Shown: in pieces, positions 5,690-47,000 of the stretch
Layout: each line of letters starts with the position of its first letter
Position numbering within the stretch: position 1 is the first letter of the stretch
Assembly (NCBI RefSeq): GCF_964204645.1
Contig: NC_134029.1
Coordinates: forward strand, 124,001 to 188,000
DNA from: Tubulanus polymorphus
Lineage: Eukaryota; Animalia; Nemertea
Reading direction: 5' to 3'
Length of the DNA stretch: 64,000 nucleotides
Translations under genes and position numbers: made by a program
Notes under the pieces: generated by a model
Database searches by the model: none
Seen by the model: only the letters and a program-made list of their open reading frames with translations
Told to the model about the DNA's origin: nothing

Positions 5690-5860
5690 TTTATTCTTAA
5701 TATGAAAACCACGCGCTTTACCAATCTAATCCGTCGTTTCGCGGTTCCTGAATTTTCAAAGGTTAAAGATTACTACTTTAGTTCACAGAAATTCCGCTAT
5801 TGCAATTCATAGGGGCAGCACTGAACGGTTGTAATCTGATGCAGTCTTGCTATTTTACTG
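5690..5860. repeat. Left part of a segmental copy of the UFM1 3' flank (matches about 20824-20992)
   Basis: Near-identical run atgaaaaccacgc...ttcacagaaattccgctat...gatgcagtcttgc(t/c)attttactg at both sites. Confidence 0.85.
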
Positions 5861-7230: not shown

Positions 7231-8992
7231 TGAAAAATTTAATTCTATCATTTTAATGTGTAATATTGTATAACTGTATATTTGTCTATTGTTTTATATT
7301 TGTATCACTGTTATCTGTATGTGTTTTGGGGGGTTAATAGTCCAACCCTCCTAACTCTACATGTGTTAACGTTTATATAGTTTCTAGAAAAAAAGTTGTC
7401 AAGTCCAAATCGTCAATTCCTCATCCTACCAATGTCAAGCTTAACCCACAAAATCGTGGAAGCTTCGTTTTAAGGGGAGGGGTGAGGGTGGGGGGCGTTG
7501 GATAATTGTGAAATATATTCAAAATGCCTAAGATTTAACGGTTGAAATTATGTTTTAATTGGGGGGTCAAATAAATAGTTAAAACTAACATAAATTCTAT
7601 CAATTCTATTTATCTACAAGAACTATTAGACATGTCATACAAGTCGCACCTGAATTTTTTCAAGCCACTCTGTCATCATCATTCAACTTCGGGTTCGATC
7701 TTCTGTGGCCCGGGGGGTCTTTTTCTTCTCACTGAAATCATGGACGTATCAACTCTAGTTGACAAGTCCACGCTGAAATATGTCCTACCTTATTCAATTC
7801 GGACCGCTCTTTTCTTTCATCAGTCTGTTGTATCTTCCATGAAGCTGTAACACTGGGTACCGGTACCTGTTAATTAAACCTAATCTAACCCTAACCTAAA
7901 GTGCAACTATTTTTTCCTAAATCTAAACCTATAAAACATAATTTCGACCGCTAATGTTAAATAAATGTTCCACCTACCTTACAGCAACCTTGTTACGCGG
8001 ATGAAGCAGCAATTTGAAAATTTAATCCTTTTATTTAAGAGTCAATTTCAAAGTCAATTTTAAATTCCGTGTCCTGTTGCCAAAATCCAGTTGTATTAAT
8101 AACAAATAGTTTATCAGCTCAGCTGCGTTTGTTACAATTCTCTTTTTCTAAAACGTGTCCTATCTGAGCAATATCCAGCGACAGAGACTTCTTCGCCGTG
8201 TAGAATTTCCAAGTGTAATGACAACTTGTATGAGCGCCCACTAGTTTTTAACTGACCCCCTTAAAATTCGTAGCCGGTGATTGGTTGCATCACCGATAAC
8301 AAAAGCTTCGGGGAATGATTTCAAAAGGTATTGCAGGTAGGTCACTGGCCATTCTTGAATTGCGGTCAATGGCATCTTTTCTTTTGAAGTTTGAAAATGC
8401 TTCGAAGTTTGAAAACGCTGAGGTTATGTGGCGCTAATCGGCGATTATCCGGCCGGTTGCGTTGGTCTAGGCGTCGACATGAAGCCAGCCTTAGACGTCA
8501 CTTCGCGGAAGGAAGTTTAGAAAGTGTGAAGAAAAAAGTGTATTGAGTGTCAGAATATTAATACTTTCACCCTCACGCAAGCCTCATGGTTAGCGGAGCG
8601 CATGATCGGTTAAAAATATGCACGCCAAATTCAGACAAATTATGACAAATCTGTTACCCCGTATATAGATACTGAAATAATCATTTAAGTCTCACTCTTC
8701 ATAACTGCTGTATTATCAAAATATATAAAAATATCTACTTCAGTATAAATTATAATTAATGAAATTGAGCATATTATTCCCCAATTTTATTAACATTATA
8801 ATTAAGGATTATATTCTAGACTCCAATTCTCGTTTTGTTACTGAGTGGATTTCGTTATTCAACTTATTCCTGTTTTATAAGGAACACGTGTTTTATGTAT
8901 ACCGGTAGTTATTGCGTTTACATGTTGAGATCACGTGATAGCATGTCACATGTAGAAACAAAATGGCGGACCTGGTGTGAAAAAAAATTCGC

Positions 8993-9770
<778 letters not shown>

Positions 9771-14569: not shown

Positions 14570-14796
14570 GTATGTATCTCATCCTGTAAATGAGAGTAAA
14601 ACAATAACAGAGACTGTGAAGAATTGTGTAGAGAAATTCATTACCAGTTTTGTACTTACCTTTAAATGAGCCTGTTTAGATAGTAAATTCTATTGCATTC
14701 ATTTCATTCTGAAAAGAAAAAGAAACAATAATCAGTGACAAAAGAGCAGAATGTAACATCTCAAATTATCAATCAATCAGACAGAAACAGTACAGG

Positions 14797-14994
14797 ATTT
14801 CTGTAGATTAAACTGCTGTACTTATTTCATACTGATTGAACAGTTACAGATACATGTAACATTGTGTACAGATACAGAGTACAGATCACTGCATTACTTC
14901 ATCCTGTGATTGAACAGTGATTTAATGTTCTCTCATCTTCATTAGATTCCCATCCATCTAACTAAAACATCAGAACAATTCAACTCATCTAACC
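14797..14994. repeat. Left arm of an about 200-bp inverted repeat (partner 19016-19213)
   Basis: Reverse complement matches 19016-19213 with only a few mismatches. Confidence 0.9.
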
Positions 14995-19015: not shown

Positions 19016-19213
19016 GGTTAGATGAGTTGAAATGTTCTGATGTTTTAGTTAGACGGATGAGAATCTAATGAAGATGAAAGAACATTAAATCACTGTTCAA
19101 TCACAGGATGAAGTAATGCAGTGATCTGTACTCTGTATCTGTACACAATGTTACATGTATCTGTAACTGTACAATCAGTATGAAATAAGTACAGCAGTTT
19201 AATCTACAGAAAT
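19016..19213. repeat. Right arm of the inverted repeat (partner 14797-14994)
   Basis: See left arm. Confidence 0.9.
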
Positions 19214-21628
19214 TCTAACTCTTAAGATACACATGATCTGATTGTCACGAAGGAACATGATTGATAACAGTTGTATTATTGACATCAGGAACCAGTTTCA
19301 TATTGATTAGAAATAACATTTGAGTTGATCACAATTTAGAAAACCTGTAAACCCGCTTACAGAAATAACAATTCCAACCATGAACTGATTATAGCCAAAT
19401 ATTCACCAAAAGAAATTTGAAATGCAACAGGTTTCTGAGATTTCATTTCAAAACATGGTTTATAACAAACAATATAAAATTGGTCCCTTAAAATTAATTC
19501 AACACCCGATAAATAAAGAAGATTAATGTAACTTATCTTGAATTTCCACATAGGCTATAGTGATTCCTGATGTCATGCTGAATCCAAGAGTGATTCCCGA
19601 TGTTCTGTGCTAAATCAAAAAAAGTCTGGTAGTAAAACACTTCCTTGTTGTCCTGTGCTGAATCCAAGAATGATTCCCGATGTCCGGCGCGAAACCAAAA
19701 AAGTCTGATTGTGAAACACTGATTCCTTGATATCCTGTGCAGAATCTAAGAGTGATTCCTTGTTTTCCTGTGCTGAATCAAAATTCCCATTGAACATGTT
19801 GAAGTGATACCTATAATAGACAAATCTAAGATTGTTTTCTTTCCTTAGAAATAACTGCAGATATATCAAATTCAAAATTCAAACTTACAAATTAAATTGT
19901 TCGCTCCAATCTGCAGTTGGATTTACGGGGTTTTTCTATCCACAGTTTAGGTTTTGTATCTAGAGTTCAACATGAAATATAAACAAGAAAGTAATGAAGA
20001 AATGAACAGTTTAAATATCAGTGGTGTTGGAAGTGCAGCGACTGCAGCAGTGAAAGCCACGGCAATAATTTACTGAATGACGTTTTTTTTTCTTTGAATA
20101 TCACATTTTGGAAGAAATTAAGTAAATTCGCCGCGGCAATATTTAGAACCTGTCAAAAATTGCATTTGGCCGCAGCAATCAAAAATTGCTTCTAACGCGC
20201 GTGAATATTATCTGTTACTGAAACCGATGAAGATCATCATCGATATCATGGATGAACGGAGGCCTGTAGAGGCCTATTGCCATTGGTGTCCGTCCGGCAG
20301 GTTTGTTTGGTGAGGCGACTGATGAAATAAACTTACACTGTTCGATGTAATCAGTCGATGGAATCATTTTAGAACAAATTCCCATCACAAAACAGCGAGG
20401 TGAAGCCCATCGTGGTCTAGATATATCAGGATGGAATGACGTCGATATGCTCGACTGAGCGCCACCATGTGCACCGCCGTTTGTAGGATGTGACTCTGAA
20501 ATAATATGATTTTCCACAATATCTGAGATGGAATATTTTTCGCCATTTAAACCAATGTTACAAACACTTACCAAATATTGAAATACTGATTTCAGGGGTC
20601 GGGAAGGAGGGTGGCAATGTTTGTATTAGGTGAGGTTTTTGCTTAATTTCGTGTTATGGTAAAGCACGCCATTTTGATATTGCGTCATAGTGTACCTCAG
20701 ATTGGGATTCCCGCCGCTAGACTGGTCACCGTCACCTGCATTCGCAGTTTGGAACCGGCAACCAGTCTATTACAGGTCTCGGCTTCTTTTCGATTAGATT
20801 GGGTTTCTATATTCTACACAATATTTATTCTAATGAAAACCACGCTCTTTACCAATCTAATCATTCGTTTCGAGGTTCCTGAATTTTCAAAGGCCCGTGG
20901 ATTACTACTTTAGTTCACAGAAATTCCGCTATCGTAATTCATAGGGGCAGCACTGAACGGTTGTAATCTGATGCAGTCTTGCCATTTTACTGTGGCATGT
21001 GAGGAATACAGATCTTTTCTTAAGTCAAATTTCATTCATCACTCAACGCTAGTTTGTTTGAAATTAATAACTGTACCAACTTTAGAGCTTTATAAAAGGA
21101 AAGTCTGCTTTTGAAATATATATTTGAGCCATTATTAATAGAACTATTTGGTTTCAGCGAATGTATTAACACGCGGTAAAGCGGCATAGTTATATGCCAC
21201 AGGAAGAATTCAACGCAAATTAAACTATATTCTCCAAGATTGTCAGACCATGTTCTACTAACCCAGTAGTTTTTACTTTCCTCGGATCTCAATAGTTTCA
21301 ATAAGTTTTATTCATATCCCACCCTCCCTGTTCCTCTCTCCTGCTGGCCTCTAACCATCAGTCCCTGTTGCTCTCCACCCCGGGCCCTGTTCCTCTCTCC
21401 TGCTGGCCTCTAACCATCAGTCCCTGTTGCTCTCCACCCCGGGCCCTGTTCCTCTCTCCTGCTGGCCTCTAACCATCAGTCCCGCAACAATTCACAAACT
21501 GAACGCACAATTCACATCAGTTCACATGATTTTATTTGATTGACAGCACAATTATATATTTTTTTCTTCATTGTATAAATAAAAACATCCTTGACAAATA
21601 AATATAATTAACTATGAGAGGAAGAGTT

Positions 21629-23225
<1,597 letters not shown>

Positions 23226-24460
23226 TTTTAACACTTTACACGGTGGATCTATCAATCAGCAGACATGGCATGACGGAGTGTAGGGTCGCTAAACGGCACG
23301 GATCGGAAACCTGTGATGTGATATCACCGGGGCCGTATAAAACAAAAACTGTGCTAACCGTACAGAGGAACGACGATGGAATTCTTGCGTCAAGACTTTT
23401 ATAAAACTGCCCTTATTTCTGGCCTACAATAAACAATGATGAGACCAGGGAGACCCACCTCCCTGATCAGACACACTTCTAACCTGAATCAGTCACTACA
23501 ACGTCGATTCAAGCGAGGGTCGAATTAATTCTAGGAAAAAGATCGTTAAATCATTCTTCACCTAGGAATCGCACGGTGAATGTCCAGGATTCCAATCCCC
23601 AACGCGGTGATGAGTTAACTTATGAAAAGTTAGAAGTATAAAATCTAATTTAATCAACGTTTGCTGGAATTGCAGGCAATCGAAAATAATAACTGAGGTG
23701 ATTGATTCAGTGTTTTTGGTCCAGCACTCGGGATGTCCCGTGATAAAACCGACTCCCCAGACAATGAGTGGGCTTATAGCTGAAAACAAACTTGATGATG
23801 CAACCAACACAAACTATTATAATATTGTGTAGTTTACTGATGACTTATAAGTTAGATCCAAAAAAGTAAAACGAAATGGAAAAGACTTTATTGCTTGTTT
23901 GTTTGAAGAACGAATTACATCAACCGCACTATATTCGCAGTCCTCTTCAACAACCTGGGTGTTGTTTGGTTGTATCAAATTTCACTAAAATTCTACTGCA
24001 GATGTTCATGCTGAAATATTCACGAATTTTTCGTCCTCGCAAAAGATGTAAAAATTGACCACTTCGCACATGTATCAAACTTGGTTATTTTACTAAATTT
24101 CTACAGCGGATTTTCATACAGAAATATTTATATATCAAATAAGCATTCATTTACAGGGGCCCGCTATATAAGGGGACATGGTCTTCCTTCACATTAAGGT
24201 ACCGGTGCCTTTTCTTCAAGACAGGTATAAACCTACAAATCTACTGATCCTCTGGAAATTGTAATCGTTATGACCTTGAGTCTCAGTAGAGCGGACCGAG
24301 AGGGCCGGAACGTGCAGCTAGCCCAGGTCCGGTCACTCTAAATATCATCATAGTTTCATGTAACTTGGCAACAGTTGCATAAAAATGGCGTCCACTTGGA
24401 TAGCGATGTAAATATTGTCAGCTCACTTCATATTCAATCTGAATCTAATCAATTCAAGAG

Positions 24461-24511
24461 ATGGGAAACAAAGTGACGAAATTCTTTGGCAAATTGTCTT
24501 GTTGTAAAAAG
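24461..24511 (+). CDS. Alternative (duplicated) first coding exon of the VTD-like protease: MGNKVTKFFGKLSCCKK
   Basis: Identical to 25456-25506 and ends in the same phase-0 donor AAG|GTAAGA. The 24358-24517 segment duplicates 25360-25512. Confidence 0.7.
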
Positions 24512-25455
24512 GTAAGAATTCGGGTGGTTTTGGATGTTAGACAGAAAAAAAGCCCGAGAGCCAAGAATAAGATCCCCGACCCGCACGCGATCAGCCGTTT
24601 CTTCTCACGACTCAAGACACTTCAACCTGGCAAACTGGCATCCCACACCGGATCAACCATCATGATCTGATCAAGGCTATGTGTGACCATCGTGTGCGGT
24701 GAAAGTGAGGATCTGGCCAGAGTTTTATGGTCTGTGGCTCCAGCGCCAGGGCAGAGCCCATGATCCGTCAGCTGTACTCATGATGGATAACATCGCGCAA
24801 CACGTGCCTCAGTCGAACAGTTGCGACACTCTTCTCTCTCAAAACCCATGGACTTCATTTTTATCACTAAAATACATCGTGCATGTGTAACTTAAAAGAT
24901 AAAAGCCCGGGTGAAGTTAGATTTGAATTTGCAGTAGAATTGGAGTTCAAGAAAAATAGATGATAAAAACTTTTACCAATACGATCGACAAGTTAGAAAA
25001 TCAATTCTTAATATACATTCATAGAACTGGCTCTGTGGTGTCGTGTTAATAATAGAGGACAGCAGGGCGCTGTTTACTTCATACAATAATGACTTCTCTC
25101 TTCTCCCCGAGAAAGATTGGCGCACCGTCCCGGTCCTAGGTAGGTATAGGCTCTGGGCTGGTGAAAGAGAGAGAGAGAAATGTCGCATGGTTCAGGATTT
25201 TATCGCAACGGAGAACTTTTTATATGTAGTCTCTCATCTCAAGGGGTTTTGGTGCGATCTTTGGCAGAGCTGACCATTTAAAGGAGACGGGGAGAGTCGC
25301 TTGGGGAGTGTGGGGCCCGGTCGTATCTAACGACCGTATCTAAGGTTGTGACATCATAGATGTAACTTGGCAACAGTTGCATAAAAATGGCGTCCATTTG
25401 GATAGCGATGTAAATACTGCCAGCTCACTCAATCTGAATCTAATCAATTCAAGAG

Positions 25456-27961
25456 ATGGGAAACAAAGTGACGAAATTCTTTGGCAAATTGTCTTGTTGT
25501 AAAAAGGTAAGAGTTTGAATGCGCAGCAGCAGCAGCAGCAGCAGGAGCAGCTATAATAGTCGTCTTGAGCAAGACTCATCCCTTAGCTTTAATTAACATC
25601 ACACTGTATCCTGACTTGTGGGGGGTGTGGGGGAAGGCTCTTTATATGGCTTTCCCTCTGGCATGACGGTTACCTCAAGGCAAGGATCCATCAAATAAAA
25701 CTTTCAGATGAAGACAGCTTTTTTATTTATGATGAACATAGATTTTCTTCAAAACTTTATTTTGCAATTAAAAATATAATCTATCATATACATTGACCTA
25801 AATATACAAAATACTGATTTATAATCAAATCAATTTGGAAATGAATTAAAATAATTTCGTGACTTTTTAAGTAATTCCTCCAATGTTTAAACTGATACCA
25901 CTCTTATTAAATAGAAATCCTCTAGCCTACTAGTAGCGTATATACGGTTCAGTGGTTCTCATTTTCTTTTTGTAGTTCAGTCACCTCAAACACACATTAA
26001 TTAATTGTTCAATTAATTCTTTCGTCAATTAAACAGTCACAGAGACAATAAGTAGGCCTATAGGTAGGAGTCGAGGGAAGGGGTTTAGAGGGGTTGATAG
26101 GGTACTGAAACTAGATTCATCATCAGATTAAAACCAGGGCCCAATAACACATCATCACTTCAGTACATTCATTCTAAGGCTAACTTGTCCTAGACCTAAC
26201 ATTGTCTAAATCATGACTGTCCAAACCGGCCAAGGGAATATTCATCAATCAAGGGAATATTCATCAATTCCTTTAAAACTTTTAGCAATATATTCTTAAA
26301 TATTATACATGTAATTCTGTATTTATATTCAATCAATCTAAAATATCATTCCTTTAATTATCTTATTCTATTTTTTTATTGAAGCCTCGAAAGAATAAAC
26401 ACGACGAGGAAGTCATAAAGAAATTAGCGGCAGAGAGAAAAACTTCGAGAAAGAGTTCCTCTTCGTTAACCGATGAGTTCTGTACTCCTCCTACGCAATC
26501 CTCATCACACGCTACCCTCACTTCCGTTACTCAGTTACCCGGCAACACCGGCAACAATAATACAGGGTTACCGGGGTTACTAACAGTAGACAGTATCGAA
26601 GCGATGAAAGAATCGAGTGATAATACTCTAACATCGATCTCATCAATCCGTACCGAGGACGGCATTCCGTTACCATCGGTTACAGATATCACAGCTGTCG
26701 CTATAGATACCAACAACAATGATATCGTGATCGAAGAGGATATAAGAAAGTTCTCGCCGTCATCGTCATTTTCCTCTTCATCGATACTGCTTCGATCAGA
26801 CGTCATTCAAACATTCATCGCTCCTCATTCTCCTCATCATTTACAACTCGATTTATCATCTTCATCTTTATCTAACGAGCAGCGGATAGAGCAGCGGGTA
26901 GAGCAGCAGGTAGAGCTGATCGAGTTTACTAATCGATCGCACGGTATTCTCAGGGTTGTACAAGCTCATTATCATCAGGTCAGTTTAACTAACAATCAGT
27001 AAACTATGTATTACTAATATTAACCATTGAATCATCACCAGTGATCACTTAAACACTAATTTATGTAATGACACATCCCTGCAGCAGCTGCTGTTACTCA
27101 ACAATTCGATTATAAATTAAACTGGTTGATAGTGACAATTGAAACTGTTTTGTCACTAGGCTAACTTACCACCAGTTACCGGTTAAACTGAAACTAACTA
27201 CAGTCCCTGATTCTCAAGTGGCGCCAACACTTAGCGCCATAGTATAAATACTTTCTAATTCTCGTTTAAAATGATGAATATTTAATGATAAAGTGATGTA
27301 TTTACAGATGACCATTGAGTCGGGTCCGGTATCGGGAACACAGTGTACATCGATGGCTGTAACAGCTATCTATGCTGCGTATTACGGTAACCCGTTACTG
27401 ATGAACAGCAATCGTCTCGATGATATCCTTAAAGTAGGGAATGCCATTCACGTGTCGGCCGTTAAACATCTACTTCACGTTAACCAGTGCCGCAGTTTAT
27501 TCATTCATCCGTCCGAATACAGACCGGATATTCTCACGGACTCCGGCATGGATCGGTTAACAATAATCGCCGGACCGAGTATCAGCGGGAATCTGAACGA
27601 CGTCGAGATAGACGAGGAAGTATCGGAATTCGCTCTGCCGATACGCGAGGCAATCCTCCGCACGACCGCTCTACCCTACACCGGCGCCATCTTAACTATC
27701 AACTCGGAATCATTCGCAGTTATACCGTCACGTGGTCGCCGTGGTAACAGCGACGAGGAGAATGACGATACGATATTTGTATTCGACAGTCATTCACGAG
27801 ACCCGGACGGACGATCCGACCCAGAAGGCGCCGCTGGGTTATACCAGTATAAGAACGTTGATTGTCTGGTAGAATTCCTGCGAGACGTTCGGAAGAGAGA
27901 TGACGCAGACGGTGCATTGTTTGAAATGACTGGGATTCAGTTTGAAGAGCCACCTGATTGA
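25456..27961 (+). CDS. Viral-tegument-like deubiquitinase (VTD / herpes tegument peptidase C76-like) cysteine protease, about 432 aa; exons 25456-25506, 26385-26978, 27308-27961
   Basis: Two phase-0 GT-AG introns join the three exons in frame. Motifs: VVQAHYHQ...GTQCTSMA (Cys codon 27344), LDDILKVGNAIH, GAILTI..SFAV, IFVFDSHSRDPDG (Asp 27785, His 27791), FEMTGI. This follows the family pattern gsfhQ..G.QC..LD.IL..G..FDSHSR. Confidence 0.8.
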
Positions 27962-27973
27962 AGGTAAAACATG

Positions 27974-28195
27974 GTCAGATCCAGTCCAGTCAGACCTAGT
28001 CTAGTCAGACCCAGTCCGGTCAGACCCAGTCCGGTCAGACCTAGTCCAGTCAGACCTAGTCCAGTCAGACCCAGTCTAGTCAGACCTAGTCCGGTCAGAC
28101 CTAGTCTAGTCAGACCTAGTCTAGTCAGATCCAGTCCGGTCAGACCCAGTCCAGTCAGACCCAGTCCAGTCAGACCCAGTCCGGTCAGATCCAGT
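27974..28195. repeat. 15-bp minisatellite (gtcagacccagtccg), about 15 copies
   Basis: Directly visible; lies just after a donor at about 27964. Confidence 0.95.
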
Positions 28196-31647: not shown

Positions 31648-33661
31648 TTAGGAAGGAATTAGTTGGTACATTGGGTCAATAACCGGAATAATACCGAGTA
31701 TCGAAGACACAACTCCACAAAGACCTTGAATCCCGGAATTCGGCGCTATATAACCTAATGAACTCAGAGGTAAAATGATATCACATGAATTCTTTACACT
31801 ATCCAATAAAATCACTTTGTTTTCGATTAAACATTTAACGATTATTTGCGACCAGGTGTGAGTTTTAGGTTTCACACGGTTTCCAGATTGTTTCCCAACA
31901 ATCTTATTCCTCTTCTTGTAAACAATCTCTCTCATTATCGATACGTAAATCTCATTGATATCTCGAGTCAGATTTAGAATCAGCATCATCAGCCAAAACT
32001 CATATGATAATTGTGACCACGATTGAAGATCGATATGAACCAGTTTTAAACGATTCAATAGAATGATATTATCCGCTATGAAGTAAAGAGCATGCGATAT
32101 TTTTGAGAGCGTCACCAATAATCTCAAAGTAAAATCATCCAATCGAACAGTCCTCAAAGCTGACACGAGAATATCGAAACTTTTAGCAAATCTCAGAACT
32201 GAAAATTAGAAATATCAGTTCTTAAGTAAACACAAACAGTAGTACAGGAGAGTGACACAAAGAATACTGAGTCAGTCACTAATACAATAGAGGATGAATT
32301 GATAAATACCTTTTCTAGTTGTACTGATAGAATATTCGAGGTGTTTAAATTTCTTCACGAATTCTTCATTATTCGGTTTTGATTGTAAATACCACCAGAT
32401 AAATTTACTGCCATATTGTACAATTCTACAAATATAAATTACAAGAAGAATTTCAGCTACAATCTCTACATCATCCCTCTGTATACATAGTTATAGAAGG
32501 GTATAATTCAAGGGGGTTTAGGGGGACATGGTATAAACAGGTATCATTACCACAGCATACACTGTTATAGAGGGAAAGAAGGAACAGACAGATAATGTCG
32601 AGTCGCATCTTTCTGATATTTGGCATTTGCCAGCATTACAGTTCAATGTGGTATAAACAGTTACTGTTTAAACAAATTAAGTGACATTATAAAATTATTG
32701 CTTGTTAACAAATTCTTCGAGTATTTCTCTATATTTCTTAGTATCTCACAATTTCATGTATTTACGATATTTCTATGAGGAATCAATCATTTATTACGTA
32801 CGCATGAAATCTGACTTTTTTTTCACTTCAATAATCAGGGACTCATTATGGGAAAACCTTTTTTTTATATTTTCATACCAACGCGATTGATGACTGACTA
32901 ATTACACAAATTGTAATCAATATTGAATCGTATTCTATCAAGGACTCTTTCATTATATTGAATTATTATTATTAGTATTATAATTATTAGTATTACTGGT
33001 ATTATATATTTCGAGCACAGCTCGTGTGAGTTCAGCTTGTTCTCGAACCTTTTTAACCGTGTTATGTAATTAATTAAAGTATTGATTGTGTATGTATTTA
33101 TGGTTTATGAAAATAAATGTATGATTCCAGGGATTCCAGGAATCGTTTCTTCAGATTTATAGACCAGTTTAAAATTAAACTGGTCAATTTAAGACCAGTG
33201 GTCAACAGATGGTATCATAGCCTAAACTAACATTTCACAACCTTGGATTTTAGAATAACTATCCCTAGCTTCTGATTGGACCAATTGTGGTCACATGATG
33301 TAAACAAACTGACCATACCTACTGGGATAGCATGGACTCGCCCATCAGTTACTGGGTACCATACCGGTACCCCGGCACGAGCCCCCCCCCCCCGGGCACA
33401 GGGCTGCCCGGGAGTCCATTGATCTCTCATTAATAGTACAGATTCAACACATCTATCGTTCAATCACCAACATCTTCCTCTACATCATCACGTACATCAT
33501 TATGTGCACTGCACATCTGAGATAGTAGAACCACCATCCAAATGTACACCCCTCAGATTTTGATGCCCAGCTGAATAAAGAATCATGTCTCCCTACCTGC
33601 ACAGTTTATCCCTGCCAATAGTTTGGGAACTTATTTTTACAACTGTCTCAGCAATATCCAT
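31648..33661 (-). CDS. PEX11: Peroxisomal membrane protein PEX11 (alpha/beta type), copy 1, 243 aa; exons 33597-33661, 32310-32425, 31648-32198
   Basis: MDIAETVVKISSQTIGRDKLCRIVQYGSK...STTRKVLRFAK...LNLTRD...LLDSVKNSCD..LP...GLCGVVSS; phases consistent and frame open. Confidence 0.92.
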
Positions 33662-34737: not shown

Positions 34738-37075
34738 ACCTCCTCTTCATCATCAGCATCCAAAACTTTGATCTATCATCTTCATCTTTATCTAACGAGC
34801 AGCAGCAGCAGGTAGAGCTCAGTCTGATAGAGTTCACTAGTTCATCGTACGGTATTCTTCTCAGAATTGTAAGTCCCAGTCCGGTCAGATCTACTCCAAT
34901 CAGACCTAGTCCGGTCAGATCTAGTCCAGTCAGATCCAGTCCGGTCAGATCTACTCCAATCAGACCTAGTCCGGTCAGACCTAGTCCGGTCAGACCTAGT
35001 CCAGTCAGATCCAGTCCGGTCAGATCTACTCCAATCAAACCTAGTCCGGTCAGATCTACTCCAATCAGACCTAGTCCGGTCAGACCTAGTCCGGTCAGAT
35101 CCAGTCCGGTCAGACCCAGTCCGGTCAGATCCAGTCCGGTCAGACCCAGTCCGGTCAGATCTAGTCTAGTCAGATCCAGTCCGGTCAGACCCAGTCCGGT
35201 CAGATCCAGTCCGGTCAGATCCAGTCCGGTCAGATCCAGTCCGGTCAGATCCAGTCCGGTCAGACCCAGTCCGGTCAGATCCAGTCCGGTCAGATCCAGT
35301 CCGGTCAGATCCAGTCCGGTCAGATCCAGTCCGGTCAGACCCAGTCCGGTCAGATCAAGTCCGGTCAGATCCAGTCCGGTCAGATCCAGTCCGGTCAGAC
35401 CCAGTCCGGTCAGATCCAGTCCGGTCAGACCCAGTCCGGTCAGATCCAGTCCGGTCAGATCCAGTCCGGTCAGATCCACTCCGGTCAGATCCAGTCCGGT
35501 TAGACCCAGTCCGGTCAGACCCAGTCCGGTCAGACCCAGTCCGGTCAGACCCAGTCCGGTCAGATCCAGTCCGGTCAGATCCAGTCCGGTCAGATCCAGT
35601 CCGGTCAGATCCAGTCCGGTCAGATCCAGTCCGGTCAGACCCAGTCCGGTCAGATCCAGTCCGGTCAGACCCAGTCCGGTCAGATCCAGTCTGGTCAGAC
35701 CCAGTCCGGTCAGACCCAGTCCGGTCAGATCCAGTCCGGTCAGATCCAGTCCGGTCAGATCCAGTCTGGTCAGACCCAGTCCGGTCAGATCCAGTCCGGT
35801 CAGATCCAGTCCAGTCAGATCCAGTCCAGTCAGACCCAGTCCGGTCAGACCCAGTCCGGTCAGATCCAGTCCGGTCAGATCCAGTCCAGTCAGATCCAGT
35901 CCGGTCAGATCCAGTCCGGTCAGATCCAGTCCGGTCAGACCCAGTCCAGTCAGACCCAGTCCAGTCAGACCCAGTCCGGTCAGATCCAGTGTGTGCTGAC
36001 ACATTGACTACACTTATCTATAGCGTTTACATTAATACATCTTTTGTATATTTTAGCGATCAAAGGATTGTCGGAGGAGAAAGGAGTAGAGGTGGCGGAG
36101 TGGAAGGTGGAGTAGAGGTGGCGGAGTGGAAGGTGGAGTAGAGGTGGCGGAGTGGAAGGTGGAGCAGAGGTTGAGGCGTGGAAGGTGGAGTAGAGGTGGC
36201 GGAGTGGAAGGTGGAGTAGAGGTGGCGGAGTGGAAGGTGGAGGTGGAGTAGAGGTGGCGGAGTGGAAGGTGGAGTAGAGGTGGCGGAGTGGAAGGTGGAG
36301 TAGAGGTGGCGGAGTGGAAGGTGGAGTAGAGGTGGCGGAGTGGAAGGTGGAGTAGAGGTGGCGGAGTGGAAGGTAGAAGGAGAAGTGGCGGAGTGGAAGG
36401 TGGAGCAGAGGTGGCGGAGTGGAAGGTGGAGGTGGAGTAGAGGTGGCGGAGTGGAAGGTGGAGTAGAGGTGGCGGAGTGGAAGGTGGAGTAGAGGTGGCG
36501 GAGTGGAAGGTGGAGTAGAGGTGGCGGAGTGGAAGGTGGAGTAGAGGTGGCGGAGTGGAAGGTGGAGGTGGAGTAGAGGTGGCGGAGTGGAAGGTGGAGT
36601 AGAGGTGGCGGAGTGGAAGGTGGAGTAGAGGTGGCGGAGTGGAAGGTGGAGTAGAGGTGGCGGAGTGGAAGGTGGAGTAGAGGTGGCGGAGTGGAAGGTA
36701 GAAGGAGAAGTGGCAGAGGAGTCGAAGGTCGAGTTGAGAGTGGACTAGGAGGAAGTAGAGCAGGCTGTTGATCAGTGTTCAGTGTCCAGTGACCAGCAGG
36801 CTGTTTACCAGTGACCAGTAGACTGCTGACCAGTGTCCAGTGACCAGTAGACTGCTGACCAGTGTCCAGTGACCAGCAGACTGCTGACCAGTGTCCAGTG
36901 ACCAGCAGACTGCTGACCAGTGTCCAGTGACCAGCAGGCTGTTGACCAGTGTCCAGTGTCCAGTAGGCTGTTGACCAGTGATTCATCTTACTGACTTCAT
37001 CAATACAGGTAAGTATTGTAGGAGATGAGAGACACACAGATGGCGCTGACAGACAGGAATAGTTCCGCAATTTTA
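34738..37075 (+). pseudogene. Partial duplicate of the VTD-like gene lacking the catalytic exon
   Basis: 34738-34870 is homologous to the end of exon 2 (26820-26960) and joins directly to the 15-bp repeat. 35990-36085 matches 28195-28290; 36960-37065 matches 29385-29495. Confidence 0.85.
34874..35990. repeat. 15-bp minisatellite, about 74 copies
   Basis: Directly visible; source of the LTGLD and TGSDR ORFs. Confidence 0.95.
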
Positions 37076-38262: not shown

Positions 38263-40386
38263 TTAGGAAGGAATTAGTTTGAACATTGGGTCAATAACCG
38301 GAATAATACCGAGTATCGAAGACACAACTCCACAAAGACCTTGAATCCCAGAATTCGGCGCTATATAACCTAATGAACTCAGAGGTAAAACGATATCACA
38401 TGAATTCTTTACACTATCCAATAAAATCACTTTGTTTTCGATTAAACATTTAACGATTATTTGCGACCAGGTGTGAGTTTTAGGTTTCACACGGTTCCCG
38501 GAATGTTTCCCCACAATCTCGTTCTTCTTCTCCTCGTAAACAATCTCTCTCATTATCGATACGTAAATCTCATTGATATCTCGAGTCAGATTTAGAATCA
38601 GCATCATCAGCCAATACTTATTCGATAACTGTGACCACGATTGAAGATCGATAGGAACCAGTTTTAAACGATTCAATAGAATGATATTATCAACTATGAG
38701 ATAAAGAGCTTGCGATATTTTTGAGAGCGTCACCAATAATCTCAAAGTAAAATCATCCAATCGAACAGTCCTCAAAGCTGACAGGAGAATATCAAAACTT
38801 TTAGCAAATCTCAGAACTGAAAATTAGAAATATCAGTTCTTAAGTAATCACAAACAGTAGTACAGGAGAGTGACACAAAGAATACTGAGTCAGTCACTAA
38901 TACAATAGAGGATGAATTGATAAATACCTTTTCTAGTTGTACTGATAGAATATTCGAGGTGTTTAAATTTCTTCACGAATTCTTCATTATTCGGTTTTGA
39001 TTGTAAATACCACCAGATAAATTTACTGCCATATTGTACAATTCTACAAATATAAATTACAAGAAGAATTTCAGCTACAATCTCTACATCATCCCTCTGT
39101 ATACATAGTTATAGAAGGGTATAATTCAAGGGGGTTTAGGGGGACATGGTATAAACAGGTATCATTACCACAGCATACACTGTTATGAAGGGAAAATAAG
39201 TAAAGAAGGTACAGAGAATATTGCCGGTAGCCGGTATACAATGTCAGGTCACGCCCTGCTGATATTTGGCTTTGACAATGAGCCCTAACTAAGACCAAGG
39301 GGCTAGGGCTTTCATCTTTTGGGAGGGAGGATATCAATCAGTACAATTTGGAGTAAAACTGTTACTGTTAGTGACATGATTCAATGGGTTCTCATATCTA
39401 TTTATTCCTTAGCATCCCCAGATGGATCAGATCAATAGACAATTTTAGAATTAATTAAACTGGCCAATTTAAGACCAGTGGTCAACAGATGGTATCATAT
39501 CCTAAACTAACATTTCACAACCTTGGATTTTAGAATAACTATCCCCAGCTTCTGATTGGACCAATTGTGGTCACATGATGTAAACAAACTGACCATACCT
39601 ACTGGGGTAGAATGGACTCGCCCATCAGTTACCATCCCTCTAACATTGGATTGAACTAACCCTAGGGTTAGGGTTACCATACCTCTAAGGTTAGAATGGA
39701 CTAAACCTAGGGTTAGGGCTAGCATCCCTCTTGGATTGAAATGGACTAACCCTAGGGTTAGGGTTATCATCCCTCTACTAGGATTAAAATGGACTAACCC
39801 TAGGGTTAGGGTTACCATCCCTCTAAGATTAGAATGGACAAACCCTAGGGCTCTGATTGGTCTACTAGACCTGGTTGCTTGACTGACCACATTCTGGACT
39901 GGTCACTCGGTGGATCCAGATTCACTTAGGCCTAGCTCCTCGATCCTCATATTAAGAACATACAGCATTTCAAGAACAGATTCTAAACTCCAGAAACCGA
40001 GACAGAAATTACTGGCATTGGTTCATAATAATGCCCTAGAGATAAAACACCAGCACTGATAGCGGTCCACTAATCTGGAGTACCCCCCCCCCCCAGCAGC
40101 AGGAGCCCCAGCCCTGCTGCGGTTACAGGGCTGCACATGAGACCACTTTAGCCTATCAGTTGTTTGCAAATTCTACACAGCTAGCATTCAACCAACATCT
40201 TCCTCTACATCATCATGTACATCATTATATGCACTGCACATCTGAGATAGTAGAACCACCATCCAAATGTACACCCCTCAGATTTTGATGCCCAGCTGAA
40301 TAAAGAATCATGTCTCCCTACCTGCACAGTTTATCCCTGCCAGTGGTTTGGGAGTTTATTTTCACAACTGTTCCGGCGATATCCAT
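38263..40386 (-). CDS. PEX11: PEX11 copy 2, 244 aa; exons 40322-40386, 38928-39043, 38263-38816
   Basis: Same exon structure as copy 1, open frame, begins MDIAGTVVKINSQTTGRDKLCR. Confidence 0.92.
39628..39850. repeat. About 45-bp minisatellite containing CCCTAGGG palindrome and GGGTTAGGGTTA
   Basis: About 5 copies, present in intron 1 of PEX11 copy 2 only. Confidence 0.85.
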
Positions 40387-41034: not shown

Positions 41035-44000
41035 ATGGCGTCACCGGATATGGACATCAATATGATATTTGATAAATTCACAATCGAAGAAATTCGTAAC
41101 ATTGAGAAAAAAACAAGGTTTGAATAAATATCAATCAATTTGTAAATAATCACTGATTATAGTTAAATTATATAAACCGATATTTATCTCAGGTTGGACA
41201 TAGAACGGAAGAAAGAAGATTTAAGACAGATGGTCGGGTATGTATTAGTGTATATATCAGTTACTAGGGGGCGCTGTCACAGTGATTAGTGTATATATGA
41301 CTCACTAGGGGGCGATGTATATTTACAGCGAGAGGTATCGGGATCTGATAGATGCGGCAGATACAATAACATCGATGAAAACTAGCGCTGATAACGCAAG
41401 TATTGATAATCAACCTGATCAACTGATAGTTTGATACGGTAGGTTTCAGTGTGTCGGTTTTTACTGTATTTACAGGTGATGAAATCAGTGAATAAAATAC
41501 AGGAATATTGTCAAACATTGAAACAGAATCAGATGATTAAAGGAGTTTCAGTTAGTTATAAAACATCTACTAATACCAACAAGTAAGATATACCTTCCTC
41601 AATAACTCATCAGTGTGAGTTCCTCAATAACTCATGTGTGAGTTCCTCAATAACTCATGTGTGAGTTCCTCAATAACTCATCAGTGTGAGTTCCTCAATA
41701 ACTCATGTGTGAGTTCCTCAATAACTCATCTGTGAGTTCCTCAATAACTCATCTGTGAGTTCCTCAATAACTCATGTGTGAGTTCCTCAATAACTCATCA
41801 GTGTGAGTTCCTCAATAACTCATCTGTGAGATCCTCAAACTCTTTCTGTATTCTGATTATTCTGTAGGAAGAGAACTGAATGTCGATTCCTGTCGATTGC
41901 TGCACAGATTAAACTGTTGTTGGACACACCAGAGAGGATATGGACAGAACTGGACAGCAGTGAATATTTAAAGGCTACTCAATTATATCTAGTAGCGAGA
42001 CACGTTCATACTTCATTACAACTAGATACACAACAATCAACAGCTATACACACGTGGTTTCCTGTCCTCACTCGCCAGTGGACGGCTATAAGTCACTTCA
42101 GAGCTAGTATACTACAGGTAAACTGTCCCCTCACTCGCCAGTGCAGGACTGCCTCATTCATTAATCCCTCACTCACCAGTGACTGATTTTGTAGGAATGT
42201 CGCCAAGTGCTGAAAGATTCATCTAAACCTGTGAAAGTGATCACAAACAGTTTATGTTCGATAATACTGTTAGAAGATTCGAATCCTAGACAAGTTTTCT
42301 ATGAATTCCTGCTCGCTAGGTCTGTAAGTATAAAACCTAGATCAGTTCGGTTAAAACATTGCTTTATGGTGAAACACTATGAGTTTGAGAAACCCACACT
42401 ACAATCTGAATAGTTTCCTTCAAGCTTATCATTTATTGATTTGATGTTTTGACTATAACCTAACATCAGTATTCCTGGACCCAGTTCCACAGTTGTGAGT
42501 TAGAGTTAACTCTGAGTTAAAGTTAGTTCATTTTCGATGAGTAAACTTGGAGTTAAATCTTAACTCGGAACTGTGGAACTGGACCCTGAAGATGACTATC
42601 AGATTATAGTCGAAACGTCAATTGAATAGATAATTAGTTTAAAGGAAACTTCTCAGATTCTAGTGTGGGATTCTTTATATAAACATTGCTTCCATTTCAT
42701 CTAATCTCAGTTCAACATTTCCTCTAATCCCAGTTCCACATTTCCTCTAATCCCAGTTCCACATTTCCTCTAATCTCAGTTCCACATTTCCTCTAATCTC
42801 AGTTCAACATTGATTTCTTGTCTGTATCTATTTTTCACAGAATTCGATTCTACAATTGTTTAAATTGGATCAACAATCAAACTCGATTAAATCACAAATC
42901 TGTTCAGTAGTGAATATACTGTGTACGACCATACAACAGATATATCAGATATTTCATAGCGACGACGAAGAGGAAACCACTGCTGTGAATGAGGAGATGA
43001 AGGAGGAGACAGAGGAGGTACACAACAACGGCAACATAAAAAATACTAATCTACTCGTGAAAACATTACAGGAAATATCTGAGAAACATAAAGCAGGTGA
43101 GTACACGATGAACCACTAGAGGGCGCTGGTTTAAATACTCTCTCAATATTGTGGCTTTTTGTCGAACTGTGGAATTGTTATCTATTTCAGAACAACTGTT
43201 ACAGAAAGATCATGTTGGAACTAGTATTCTAAAGTCTGTAGCTGGTAAGTATAGTTCTGGAGGCAGTTCCTCAATTATACAGTTAAAGTTAGCTACTGGA
43301 TAGATGCCTTAGTGACAATTAAAATTACATTGTAAACATGATGTTTGTCTCCACCAGTGTTAACTGTATCCTAGTTTAAGGTAACTGTAGTCACTAGTCT
43401 AGGTGTTTGTTTAGTTTAACTATTTCTAATTAAAACTTGATCGAAATAGATTTTCAGTTTATCGTACAAACTCCTATAACGGGAATATCGACCAATCAGC
43501 TTCGAGAGAAATCTCATCAGTGGTTAGAGACGTGTTTAAGAGACGTAACTGACGGTGTTTGTAAATTATTGAGTTACATCACGAGTATCCGGGCGATGAC
43601 CTCAATACGAGACGACATCTGGAATCAATTATCAAACTCTGAAATATCTCACGACTGGAATTCAATTTGTGAACGCGTTCTAAACAGAGATATCTCAATC
43701 TGGGACGATTTCCTGAGAAAACTGTTCATACAACGAGTCAATGTAAGTAAAATCGTCTATCCCTGAATATTGAGTACTACCTGAAACAGTCCCTGGCAAG
43801 TGTGTATTTTGTATTTATAGGAAATTCTCGAAGGCCAGTTTGACAACGCGTTACTGACTACAAATCAACATCTGGAGAAAATTCTCAATGAAATCATTGG
43901 TTCAGAGAGGTAAATAGCACTCTTCCATTCTCTCTCTCTCCCCTCTCCTCCCTTCTCTCTCTTCCCTTCTCTCGGTCTCTCTCTCCTCTCCCTCTCTCTC

Positions 44001-47000
44001 TCTCTCCCTCTCTCTTCTCTCCTCTCCCTCTCTCTCCCTCTCCTCTCTCCTCCCTTCTCTCGGTCTCTCTCTCCTCTCCCTCTCTCCCTCTCCTCCTCTC
44101 TCCTCCCTTCTCTCGGTCTCTCTCTCCTCTCCCTCTCTCCCTCTCTTCTTCTCTCCCTCTCTCTCTCCTCTCCCTCTCTCTCCCTCTCCTCCCTTCTCTC
44201 TCTCTCTCCCTCGCCACTCTCTTCTCTCTCCTCTCCCTCTCTCTCCTCTTTCCCTCTCTCTCTCCTCTCTTCTCTAAATCTCACGTCTATGTTGTATTTC
44301 AGAACTGTATCGTTGGATAGTGATTTAACCACTTACGTTTGGAAGGAACATATCTCAGATATAGCGAGTGGAGCTGCGTGGACGCCATCTATCTCTAAAT
44401 CACTAGCAGACGCTGCTGGATTAACTATGAAATCAAAGATGTATACGCCTAATTTACAAACGTAAGACTGACCCCCCTCAAAGTTTCCTCATTCTACGTC
44501 CTCCGATTCAGGAATCTGTGATCAGATTCTCTTTGATTTTTTTGTAGTTTGTGTAAAAATTTGGACAATAAACTGAAATCATTGTTGGAAGATATGAGTT
44601 ATTATACGACAGCGCCACCTGGTGAGACTCATCGTGATGCAGCAACTGCAGCTACAGGTGGAGTGTTTGACAGAACTGCTGATAATTTATCAATTCATTC
44701 ATTCTTACAAAACACTTGTGAACTCTGCATTAAGAGGTAGCGAAGTCATTCCATAAAATTCAACCAGTATTTTAACAATCCACCTTGAATATAAAGATGA
44801 TTTATTCAATTAATTATAGGTTGCTGGGTAATATAAACTCACTAGTAACGCAGTATAAATCATTGTTGTCATCGTCGAGGCAACAGGCATTGATAGATGG
44901 TATATTATTCTGCGGTAGATTGTGTCAGGCTATCGGAGATCTCTGTCCAAACATACAACAATGTATCATCGGTTTGAACAAACAATCGGACACAGTGAAG
45001 TAAGTAAACTAGCCTGGGTACCCTTACTCTTACTGGGAGTTACCCTTCTCTTACTGGGAGTTACCCTTACTCTTACTGGGAGTTACCCTTACTCTTACTC
45101 TATTTCTTACCAGAAGTTATCGGTATTGTTGTTATTGTGTTATAGGTCGAATCGTAGACATTCTAGTTTAACAACATCAAAGAGTAAAACAGCAGCAGCA
45201 GCAGACGACCCAAAATGGACAACAATTAAACAGTTACTGTCAGACGAGTCTTTATCAGCTTACAAGTGAGTGAAAATACGGAGGGAGGGGTAGGGGTAGA
45301 CATGGGGGAGGGGGAGGGTAGACTGACAGAGGGAGGGATAGGGGTAGACAAAGGGAGGGGGATGGGTAGACTGACAGAGAGGGAGAGGTAGACTGGTCCA
45401 TCTGATTCTAAAATGAAGTATGACAACGCTTATAGGTTTTGGAGTCACTGTTTTTAGGGCTTGTTTTGTGTTTTTAGGGTTTGGAGATGTTTCACATCAG
45501 ATTCAATGATAACGCAACTTAAACAGTGTTTACTGGATACAAGTTTACAAGGTTTACTACACAACTCTACTGTAAGTTAATCAGACTGATTACTCCAAGG
45601 TTACATACACAACTCCTACTCCTGCTGCTCCTACCGTTGCCGCTGCCGCTGCTGCTGCTGCTACTTGCGAGGTGTTTATATTGATTATTATATTATTTAG
45701 AAATGGGATGAAGTATCAATAGAAGAGGAATCAGAATCAGGACGAGTGATTCGTTCTAGTATTCATATTCCGATGCAGGTGTCGCCGTATATACAAACAT
45801 TTCTATACAATCTGTGCACAGAAATCAACAGGATCGGAGGCCATACTGTTAATAGGTAAGACTCATAATTCAGGCACTGATGCTTAGGCTTAAACTGCTA
45901 TGGGCTGAGACGTAAAGGAGTGGCTAAAAATTATGACCCCAGTCCGTAGATAGTAACAGTCCATCTGTGTAACCTCAATGTTTCTGTAATTGATCCGTGT
46001 AACCTCAATGTTTCTGTAATTGATCCGTGTAACCTCAATGTTTCTGTAATTGATCCGTGTAACCTCAATGTTTCTGTAATTGATCCGTGTAACCTCAATG
46101 TTTCTGTAATTGATCTGTGTAACCTCAATGTTTCTGTAATTGATCCGTGTAACCTCAATGTTTCTGTAATTGATCCGTGTAACCTCAATGTTTCTGTAAT
46201 TGATCCGTGTAACCTCAATGTTTCTGTAATTGATCCGTGTAACCTCAATGTTTCTGTAATTGATCCGTGTAACCTCAATGTTTCTGTAATTGATCCGTGT
46301 AACCTCAATGTTTCTGTAATTGATCTGTGTAACCTCAATGTTTCTGTAATTGATCTGTGTAACCTCAATGTTTCTGTAATTGATCCGTGTAACCTCAATG
46401 TTTCTGTAATTGATCCGTGTAACCTCAATGTTTCTGTAATTGATCCGTGTAACCTCAATGTTTCTGTAATTGATCTGTGTAACCTCAATGTTTCTGTAAT
46501 TGATCTGTGTAACCTCAATGTTTCTGTAATTGATCTGTGTAACCTCAATGTTTCTGTAATTGATCCGTGTAACCTCAATGTTTCTGTAATTGATCTGTGT
46601 AACCTCAATGTTTCTGTAATTGATCCGTGTAACCTCAATGTTTCTGTAATTGATCCGTGTAACCTCAATGTTTCTGTAATTGATCTGTGTAACCTCAATG
46701 TTTCTGTAATTGATCCGTGTAACCTCAATGTTTCTGTAATTGATCTGTGTAACCTCAATGTTTCTGTAATTGATCTGTGTAACCTCAATGTTTCTGTAAT
46801 TTATAGGAAAGTTTTATGTGAATTGATTGAACAAACAACTGATGAACTGGTGAATGTATACAGCGAGTGCATAAAACCACCCATAGATGGCGTGGCAGTC
46901 GTACCATTTACTCAGAATCGAGCGTTACAAATGCTGTTCGATATTAGATTCATTTCATACATGTTTCCACGAAAAGACGATTCTGCGGTAAGTGAAATCA

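What the first reader, a model, noticed from the sequence alone, without database searches (positions are those of the whole stretch)
24461..27961. Stand-alone, spliced viral-tegument-like (VTD) protease gene with an intact active site
Seen: three exons splice in frame into a protein of about 432 aa. The C-terminal part of about 220 aa carries HQ(215)...GTQC(228)...LDDILKVG...FVFD(375)SH(377)SR. Known: this Gln/Cys/Asp-x-His layout is that of herpesvirus large-tegument deubiquitinases and their cellular VTD relatives, papain-fold proteases akin to ATG4 and UFSP, which in animals are often Helitron cargo. Seen: no Rep or helicase ORF in the window, and the domain is fused to a Ser/Thr-rich low-complexity linker with host-style introns. 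Inference: a domesticated, lineage-specific ubiquitin/UBL protease.
Basis: partly seen in the sequence, partly recalled or inferred. Interest (0 to 1): 0.85.

Follow-up and report, generated by a model that had tools for sequence, protein, structure and literature searches.

The report
Lipid-anchored transposon-type deubiquitinase beside UFM1
This single-copy, predicted three-exon gene encodes a herpesvirus-tegument-type (VTD) protease domain with all active-site residues present; it was likely tamed from a transposon, is predicted to be lipid-anchored to membranes by a short first exon, likely removes ubiquitin, and sits head-to-head with the gene for the protein tag UFM1.

Summary
Three exons join in frame to 432 aa with Q215, C228, D375 and H377. 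Exon 3 passes Pfam Herpes_teg_N, and its model matches the zebrafish Helitron VTD 8ADD best (Foldseek E 3e-10, Z 17.9). The gene is single-copy in two samples, has no Rep/helicase nearby, and shows modest signs of purifying selection (6 synonymous and 5 non-synonymous variants, no coding indels).

(1) The 17-codon first exon is a full N-myristoylation motif followed by a Cys pair and a basic patch, so the enzyme is predicted to be membrane-anchored. (2) That exon and its promoter-like block exist twice (24461, 25456). (3) The gene lies head-to-head with UFM1, 1.2 kb away.

Best reading: a Helitron-type VTD, domesticated beside a host promoter, acting as a lipid-anchored ubiquitin (perhaps NEDD8) protease. 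Splicing, expression, acylation and activity are untested: no RNA run, genome or orthologue was available. Domesticated stand-alone VTDs are already published, so 0.85 is too high. The new elements are the acylation anchor on an apparently active Helitron-type VTD and the UFM1 neighbourhood, which raises a low-odds but testable UFM1-protease hypothesis.

The parts
21629..23225 (-). UFM1 gene, five coding exons (23225-23218, 23120-23064, 22317-22260, 22167-22095, 21720-21629), 95 aa precursor; head-to-head neighbour, 1236 bp ATG to ATG
   Evidence: Pfam Ufm1 E 1e-9 on one exon; exon map with GT/AG ends; 77 of 82 residues identical to an intronless UFM1
24346..24460 (+). Promoter-like block, copy a: X-box-like site at 24360, YY1-like site at 24382, 8-codon upstream ORF
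   Evidence: Motif scan with recalled consensus patterns; duplicated at 25352-25455 with 3 substitutions and 2 indels; function untested
24461..24511 (+). Coding exon 1, copy a (17 codons): N-myristoylation motif, Cys14-Cys15, start of basic patch
25352..25455 (+). Promoter-like block, copy b
25456..25506 (+). Coding exon 1, copy b, identical to copy a in all 51 nt
   Evidence: collapsed contig at about double depth in run X1
26385..26978 (+). Exon 2: basic patch, Ser/Thr-rich linker (S 19%, T 11% of residues 41-200), first strand of the VTD domain ending in Gln215 (26976-26978)
   Evidence: no Pfam family
27308..27961 (+). Exon 3: VTD catalytic domain; Cys228 at 27344-27346, Glu285, Asp375 at 27785-27787, His377 at 27791-27793
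31648..33661 (-). PEX11 copy a, convergent neighbour, part of a local tandem duplication
34740..34871 (+). Remnant of the 3' end of VTD exon 2 in the second unit of the duplication; the catalytic exon is absent
   Evidence: the six-frame HMM scan finds only one VTD domain in the window
38263..40386 (-). PEX11 copy b

Best explanation
The locus holds a single-copy VTD-family cysteine protease gene with an intact Gln/Cys/Asp-x-His site, likely domesticated from a Helitron-type transposon, predicted to be spliced from three exons and to be held at a membrane by N-terminal myristoylation plus palmitoylation, where it likely removes ubiquitin. Shown: the open three-exon frame, the VTD sequence and fold match, the catalytic residues, the NMT motif with Cys pair and basic patch, single copy, no Rep/helicase nearby, and the head-to-head position to UFM1. 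Inferred: a transposon fragment settled beside the UFM1 promoter and gained a new upstream exon and intron. NMT acylates Gly2, a palmitoyl transferase acylates Cys14/15, and the flexible linker of about 160 residues lets the protease reach ubiquitinated membrane proteins. The substrate is inferred from the Helitron VTDs: K48/K63/K11 chains, perhaps NEDD8. The UFM1 adjacency is most likely a borrowed promoter, not a substrate link.
For: Family and fold: PF04843 E 1.1e-6. 8ADD is the top match by sequence, Foldseek (E 3.3e-10, TM 0.67) and VIA (Z 17.9, rmsd 3.8, 190 aligned), ahead of M48 and the Waddlia VTD. The model ends in a strand, without the C-terminal helix that marks K6-specific VTDs (PMC9741609 Discussion). 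Glu285 aligns with Glu377 of DrT1-VTD2, the more important ubiquitin-tail contact. Anchor: the N-terminus fits the published NMT motif at all positions. Only 2 of 730 open ATG frames in the window fit it, and they are the two exon-1 copies; random N-termini fit with a Cys 2 times in 10,000. Net charge is +10 over residues 1-40. Domestication: one contig at flank-level depth in X1 and flat raw-read depth in X5, at 80% likeness. There are 6 synonymous and 5 non-synonymous variants, pN/pS 0.26, P 0.03; exon 3 alone 3 to 1. No coding indels occur against 8 listed in the upstream non-coding 1.8 kb (P about 0.01). The frame survived a period in which about 5.7 frameshifts would be expected. Precedent for transposon genes domesticated head-to-head with host genes, with a new upstream exon: PMC2777200 (mammals only).
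Against: No spliced read, protein or activity has been seen. No orthologue was found: best whole-domain identity is 26%, on a long unplaced branch, so conservation across species, the usual proof of domestication, is missing and the donor element is unidentified. The selection tests rest on 11 variants from 2-3 samples, equal-rate site counts and hand-picked segments whose divergence ranges from 1 to 12%. Intron 2 also had no indel. The Asp376 partner is Ser here, and the ubiquitin-contacting loop is longer, acidic and poorly predicted. None of the related VTD proteins checked carries the NMT motif. An AG lies just before the ATG and the intron-2 acceptor is pyrimidine-poor, so other 5' ends are possible. 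Only 64 kb could be inspected for transposon ends.
Confidence: 0.57

Rival explanations
1. The gene is stranded transposon cargo (a non-autonomous Helentron derivative or a relic) that still has an open frame but does no work for the host.
For: Helitron VTDs keep their catalytic residues (PMC9741609). Several nearest hits carry Helitron_like_N, DUF6570, OTU or Mutator domains. The region is rich in minisatellites and local duplications. No orthologue was found.
Against: Single copy at 80% likeness; excess of synonymous variants and no coding indels; frame kept through the duplication interval. No Rep/helicase. No convincing termini: 4 scattered exact 12-mer inverted pairs and no flanking CTRR hairpin. 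In HLE2 elements the domain usually shares the RepHel frame (PMC11417382), unlike this acylated small protein.
Confidence: 0.17
2. The protease is a real host VTD but soluble, or has another N-terminus: exon 1 is not its first coding exon or is not joined to exon 2.
For: No RNA evidence. An AG and a branch-point-like CTAAT lie directly upstream of the ATG (sequence). An internal Met exists at residue 91.
Against: Exon 2 starts at a pyrimidine-rich acceptor and needs a phase-0 upstream exon. The exon-1 donors score 7.2 against 0.6 for the next ATG-started candidate. An in-frame stop lies five codons before the ATG. The coding 51 nt are identical in both copies while their flanks differ.
Confidence: 0.13
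3. The enzyme has shifted to UFM1 (processing the precursor or removing it from membrane targets) and is co-regulated with the UFM1 gene through the shared intergenic region.
For: Head-to-head with UFM1 at 1236 bp. VTDs share the Asp-x-His layout with UFSP2 and lack the aromatic gatekeeper (PMC9741609). UFM1, like ubiquitin, has an R-x-R before its C-terminal Gly. UFMylation acts at ER membranes (recalled). The word UFM1 is absent from the main text and three supplements of that paper, so no test is reported there.
Against: All characterised VTDs cleave ubiquitin. UFSP folds score only Z 6 against 17.9. Val instead of Gly at P2 would need a remodelled channel. Animal gene neighbours are rarely functional partners (own knowledge), and 36.5% of human domesticated TE genes sit in bidirectional pairs with unrelated hosts. 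The other neighbours, PEX11 and SDA1, are unrelated.
Confidence: 0.07
4. The domain came from a virus (an endogenised tegument protease) rather than from a transposon.
For: Herpesvirus tegument proteases are in the same family.
Against: Closer to the Helitron structure (22% identity) than to M48 (16%). No relative confirmed among 22 pattern matches in IMG/VR contigs. No viral genes were found nearby.
Confidence: 0.04

Closest known systems
Helitron (Helentron/HLE2) VTD domains, e.g. zebrafish DrT1-VTD2, PDB 8ADD (Erven et al. 2022, PMC9741609)
   Same: Fold, Gln...Cys and Asp-x-His site, conserved Glu for the ubiquitin tail, no C-terminal K6 helix; best structural match.
   Different: Here stand-alone, single-copy and intron-split, with no RepHel, and fused to a predicted acylation exon and linker; 22% identity; Asp376 replaced by Ser; acidic insertion before the Asp-x-His strand.
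Domesticated stand-alone VTDs: Drosophila Ms(3)76Ca and five C. elegans genes; insect inactive iVTDs (PMC9741609)
   Same: Host genes outside transposons; the first group is catalytically intact.
   Different: Ms(3)76Ca-type proteins are a divergent subfamily limited to the bare domain, and the Helitron-like insect genes are inactive. This one is Helitron-like, apparently active, and has a predicted lipid anchor. Conservation across species and germline expression are untested here.
Herpesvirus large-tegument deubiquitinases (M48 2J7Q, UL36, BPLF1; Pfam PF04843)
   Same: Same family and fold (Z 15.9).
   Different: 16% identity; those are N-terminal domains of very large virion proteins.
Plant DUC deubiquitinases (bioRxiv 10.64898/2025.12.04.692294)
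   Same: VTD-like fold tethered to a membrane, stabilising membrane cargo: the nearest functional analogue.
   Different: C2 domain instead of acylation, YopT-like catalytic order, a separate family.
Haliotis rubra XP_046544285.1 (P0009)
   Same: Single C-terminal VTD behind a basic, Cys-containing N-terminal extension starting Met-Gly.
   Different: Does not fit the NMT motif; no similarity to exon 2; about 26% identity in the domain.

Membership tests
VTD / peptidase C76 (PF04843) | Sequence match to the family profile above the curated cut-off | tested here: met
   28.9 bits against a cut-off of 25, E 1.1e-6
VTD / peptidase C76 (PF04843) | Catalytic Cys with upstream Gln and an invariant Asp-x-His | tested here: met
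   Q215, C228, D375, H377 align with invariant columns; Q215 depends on the predicted splice
VTD / peptidase C76 (PF04843) | VTD papain-like fold | tested here: met
   Model of exon 3 (pLDDT 77.6, pTM 0.81): top hits 8ADD, 2J7Q, 8ADB/8ADC
VTD / peptidase C76 (PF04843) | Cleaves ubiquitin | not testable with these tools
   Needs probe or di-ubiquitin assays
K6-specific VTD subfamily | C-terminal alpha-9 helix | tested here: not met
   The model ends in strand 204-213 of exon 3, followed by the stop (feature)
Helitron/Helentron (HLE2) element | RepHel in the same or a nearby frame | tested here: not met
   No such domain in 62 ORFs or by tblastn, within 64 kb
Helitron/Helentron (HLE2) element | Multiple dispersed copies | tested here: not met
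   Single-copy depth at 80% likeness in X1 and X5; more diverged copies would be missed
Helitron/Helentron (HLE2) element | [quoted passage not shown] | tested here: inconclusive
   No convincing pair; ends cannot be defined without other copies
Domesticated transposon gene | Purifying selection | tested here: inconclusive
   pN/pS 0.26 on 11 variants, P 0.03; no coding indels: suggestive, small sample
Domesticated transposon gene | Syntenic orthologues in related species | not testable with these tools
   No eukaryotic genome collection and no own genome; protein searches gave no close relative
Domesticated transposon gene | Spliced transcript | not testable with these tools
   No RNA holder listed
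Dually acylated (myristoyl + palmitoyl) peripheral membrane proteins | NMT motif at the true N-terminus, nearby Cys, basic patch | tested here: met
   Motif matched at all positions; Cys14/15; charge +10. Sequence level only; the true start is inferred
UFSP / ATG4 UBL proteases | Closest fold and sequence match to UFSP1/2 or ATG4 | tested here: not met
   UfSP2 Z 6.3 (rmsd 5.7, 153 aligned) and ATG4A Z 5.1 (rmsd 5.6, 166 aligned), against 8ADD Z 17.9

The most novel reading that the evidence does not exclude
A transposon-derived VTD has been domesticated into a lipid-anchored UFM1 protease (or dual ubiquitin/UFM1 protease) that is co-transcribed head-to-head with UFM1: a non-UFSP de-UFMylase and the first VTD with a switched modifier specificity.
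Probability: 0.07. Interest if true: 0.8.

Novelty: new variant of a known kind. Interest (0 to 1): 0.48.

Why it matters
VTDs are the most recently defined animal deubiquitinase class and their host roles are open. The published domesticated animal members are either bare divergent domains or inactive Helitron-like copies. An apparently active Helitron-type VTD that gained a lipid anchor would show a transposon enzyme being re-aimed at membrane substrates by one 17-codon exon. The locus also keeps the likely steps of domestication in view: a head-to-head host promoter, a new and duplicated first exon, and a decayed duplicate. The UFM1 neighbour makes one cheap, apparently unasked question worth testing: can a VTD cut UFM1? 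As a one-lineage gene without expression data, its general reach is limited.

Tried and rejected
No genome is held for this window, so copy number rests on sequencing runs. No RNA holder was listed; the one run guessed to be RNA had nothing laid, which is no evidence on expression. No joints at the predicted introns were seen in the laid runs, which are DNA or of unknown kind. Word-index protein searches with exon 3 found nothing among 739 longer and 313 similar-length candidates; the profile search returned 3 of 4806, two of them its own rows. Viral contigs: 22 pattern matches, none confirmed. Rfam: 0 matches in 20000-42000. The tree of 21 domains left the window row unplaced on a long branch. 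Complex prediction of exon 3 with a stand-in mature UFM1 (77 of 82 identical) gave no verdict (scores 0.00, 0.33, 0.00; mark 0.34; alignments not used); it is not evidence either way, and no ubiquitin comparison was run. The ESM Atlas could not take the window protein; the homologue P0009 showed that short VTD-only clusters of 218-328 aa are common in animals, which lowers the novelty of 'stand-alone'. PIP and dileucine motifs were not found in the linker, and weak SIM-like matches were dismissed. Dropped before the variant count: 13 of 24 rows (10 intronic; 3 exon-2 rows from reads that fit only 26750-26783 with loose ends on both sides). P0003 was dropped as a repeat-driven false hit. An assembly artefact for the double exon 1 was rejected, because the spacer is covered in X1, X4 and X5 and the block collapses at about double depth in X1. 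Earlier-finding look-ups by place, by sequence and by the words for VTD with UFM1 or with acylation found no finding holding all terms.
Full report
Observation. The three-exon model is in the sequence. Exon 1 (51 nt), exon 2 (26385-26978) and exon 3 (27308-27961) have GT/AG ends, are all phase 0 and give 432 open codons; Q215, C228, D375 and H377 are numbered correctly. The spacer between them is covered in three runs and the block collapses at about double depth in X1, so the duplication is real. The host is inferred to be an animal from its spliced UFM1, PEX11 and proprotein-convertase genes; I did not determine the taxon.

Family. Exon 3 passes Pfam Herpes_teg_N (E 1.1e-6, 28.9 bits, cut-off 25), and its only PDB sequence match is 8ADD. 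An AlphaFold2 model of exon 3 from 15 sequences (pLDDT 77.6, pTM 0.81) matches 8ADD first by Foldseek (E 3.3e-10) and by VIA among 48,161 chains (Z 17.9, rmsd 3.8, 190 aligned). M48 follows (15.9), then the Waddlia VTD (13.3); UfSP2 and ATG4A score 6.3 and 5.1. Of 18 phmmer hits among 1.84 billion representatives, 17 are VTD-like; some carry Helitron, OTU or Mutator domains, and the named ones come from a wasp, an oyster, an abalone, a parasitoid wasp and a fish. None is close: 26% at best over the domain, on a long unplaced branch. The model lacks the C-terminal helix of K6-specific VTDs, which points to the K48/K63/K11 group. Glu285 matches Glu377 of DrT1-VTD2, while the Asp376 position is Ser.

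Splice model. Intron 2 falls right after the Gln codon. On an HMM built from 15 homologous domains without the window protein, 26978/27308 scores best of 14 open in-frame pairs (113.2 bits, against 109.0 for exon 3 alone) and adds model positions 3-20. The margin is small, but the homologues were found with exon 3 only, so the gain on exon 2 is independent. The exon-1 donors are the two best of 257 GT sites in 21000-26300 on a matrix of recalled frequencies. No RNA run was available, so splicing remains predicted.

The missed anchor. The N-terminus fits the NMT recognition motif quoted in bioRxiv 10.1101/2020.08.25.266692 at every position (passages). Cys14-Cys15 and a basic patch follow (net +10 over 40 residues). 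Only 2 of 730 open ATG frames in the window fit the motif, and these are the two exon-1 copies. Random N-termini fit it with a Cys 2 times in 10,000; predicted myristoylated proteins make up 0.5-0.8% of proteomes (PMC1885993, passages). The 51 coding nt are identical in both copies, while the 104 aligned nt upstream differ by 3 substitutions and 2 indels. The myristoyl, palmitoyl and basic arrangement as a stable membrane anchor is established knowledge. None of the related VTD proteins inspected fits the motif.

Domestication. At 80% likeness the gene is one contig at depth 25 in X1 (flank 28-31) with flat raw-read depth in X5, whereas nearby repeats reach many times that depth. Of 24 variant rows, 11 are coding and credible: 6 synonymous and 5 non-synonymous, pN/pS 0.26, P 0.03; exon 3 has 3 to 1, the one change lying in an inserted loop. 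No coding indel was listed, against 8 in the upstream non-coding 1.8 kb (12 of 19 indel rows shown; P about 0.01; intron 2 also had none). A tandem duplication that includes PEX11 carries a remnant of the end of exon 2 at 34740-34871 without the catalytic exon, so the gene predates it. Non-coding parts of the two units differ by 58 substitutions and 13 indels in 980 nt, which would predict about 5.7 frameshifts in a neutral 1248-nt frame (P of none 0.003). The segments were hand-picked and vary from 1 to 12%, so this is rough. No transposon domain appeared in 62 ORFs or by tblastn, and no termini were recognised. Orthologues could not be examined.

The UFM1 neighbour. A complete five-exon UFM1 gene lies on the minus strand, 1236 bp from the first ATG. 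The plain reading is promoter borrowing. In PMC2777200 (abstract and section 6), 23 of 63 human domesticated TE genes are in bidirectional pairs, and one model has the element gaining a new upstream exon and intron, as here; that study covers mammals only. The bolder reading is a substrate link. VTDs share the Asp-x-His layout with UFSP2 and lack the aromatic gatekeeper, and UFM1 is not mentioned in the main text or three readable supplements of PMC9741609 (the source-data zip could not be read). Against it, all characterised VTDs cleave ubiquitin and animal gene neighbours are seldom partners. I give it 0.07.

Mechanism. Most likely: transcription from either first exon (inferred), Gly2 myristoylation and Cys14/15 palmitoylation (predicted), a flexible Ser/Thr-rich tether (composition shown), and a Cys-Asp-His protease (residues and fold shown) that trims K48/K63/K11 ubiquitin, perhaps NEDD8, from membrane-near proteins (inferred from DrT1 enzymes). 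X-box-like and YY1-like motifs lie in both promoter blocks; germline expression, as reported for other domesticated VTDs, is only a guess.

Comparison and novelty. The VTD family, its Helitron source and repeated domestication are published (PMC9741609: abstract, introduction, first result sections, whole Discussion and passages read). HLE2 carriage of the domain is in PMC11417382 (passages and section 22). Short VTD-only clusters are common in animals. Membrane-tethered enzymes of related fold exist in plants (DUC preprint, passages; its supplements are closed), and an unchecked note from this scan describes a cnidarian SERINC-VTD fusion. I found no acylated VTD and no VTD-UFM1 link in print: 0 papers for VTD + deubiquitinase + myristoylat, 1 review listed but not read for UFM1 + VTD + tegument, 12 listings seen for VTD papers since 2023; the library lacks most subscription papers. 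Verdict: a genuine VTD member in a new architecture, a new variant of a known kind, interest 0.48.

Noticed in passing
window 8992-9679 (minus strand): Stray copy of the last UFM1 exon and about 700 nt of its 3' flank (81% overall, 94% over the exon part), lacking the splice acceptor; no other UFM1 exon is near it.
   Followed up: partly
window 31648-33661 and 38263-40386: Two apparently intact three-exon PEX11 copies in tandem; the last exons differ at 25 of 558 nt (9 synonymous, 16 non-synonymous), while exon 2 and its flanks are nearly identical, suggesting gene conversion or relaxed selection on one copy.
   Followed up: partly
window 34788-34871: Within this part of the exon-2 remnant the reading frame is kept by net indels in multiples of three and several differences are synonymous (read by eye), so a second functional paralogue may once have existed.
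   Followed up: partly
window 25786-28033, run X2: Unspliced contigs cover the gene body at depth 60-140 but not the exon-1 region; the run type is not on record, so this is unexplained.
   Followed up: no
window 2717-4759 (minus strand): SDA1 is encoded in one uninterrupted frame with high CpG content (observed/expected 1.95).
   Followed up: no
window 24385-24411 and 25387-25413: An 8-codon upstream ORF starts within the YY1-like motif of both promoter blocks (sequence).
   Followed up: no
window 23980-24130: A high-copy dispersed repeat (contig depth up to about 5000 in X1) sits between UFM1 and the protease gene.
   Followed up: no
window 5689-5860 / 20823-20992 and 14794-14994 / 19016-19216: Further local duplications, one direct and one inverted; 103 tandem-repeat rows in the window.
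   Followed up: no
window 20215-20625 (minus strand): A 136-codon open frame downstream of two YY1-like motifs, with no Pfam match.
   Followed up: partly
proteins P0012 and P0024: VTD domains fused to a Mutator-like transposase domain, so Helitrons are not the only possible donor.
   Followed up: no
window 41857-47122 (+) and 49813-63732 (-): Exons resembling COG1 (name recalled, no tool match) and a furin-like proprotein convertase (P domain).
   Followed up: no
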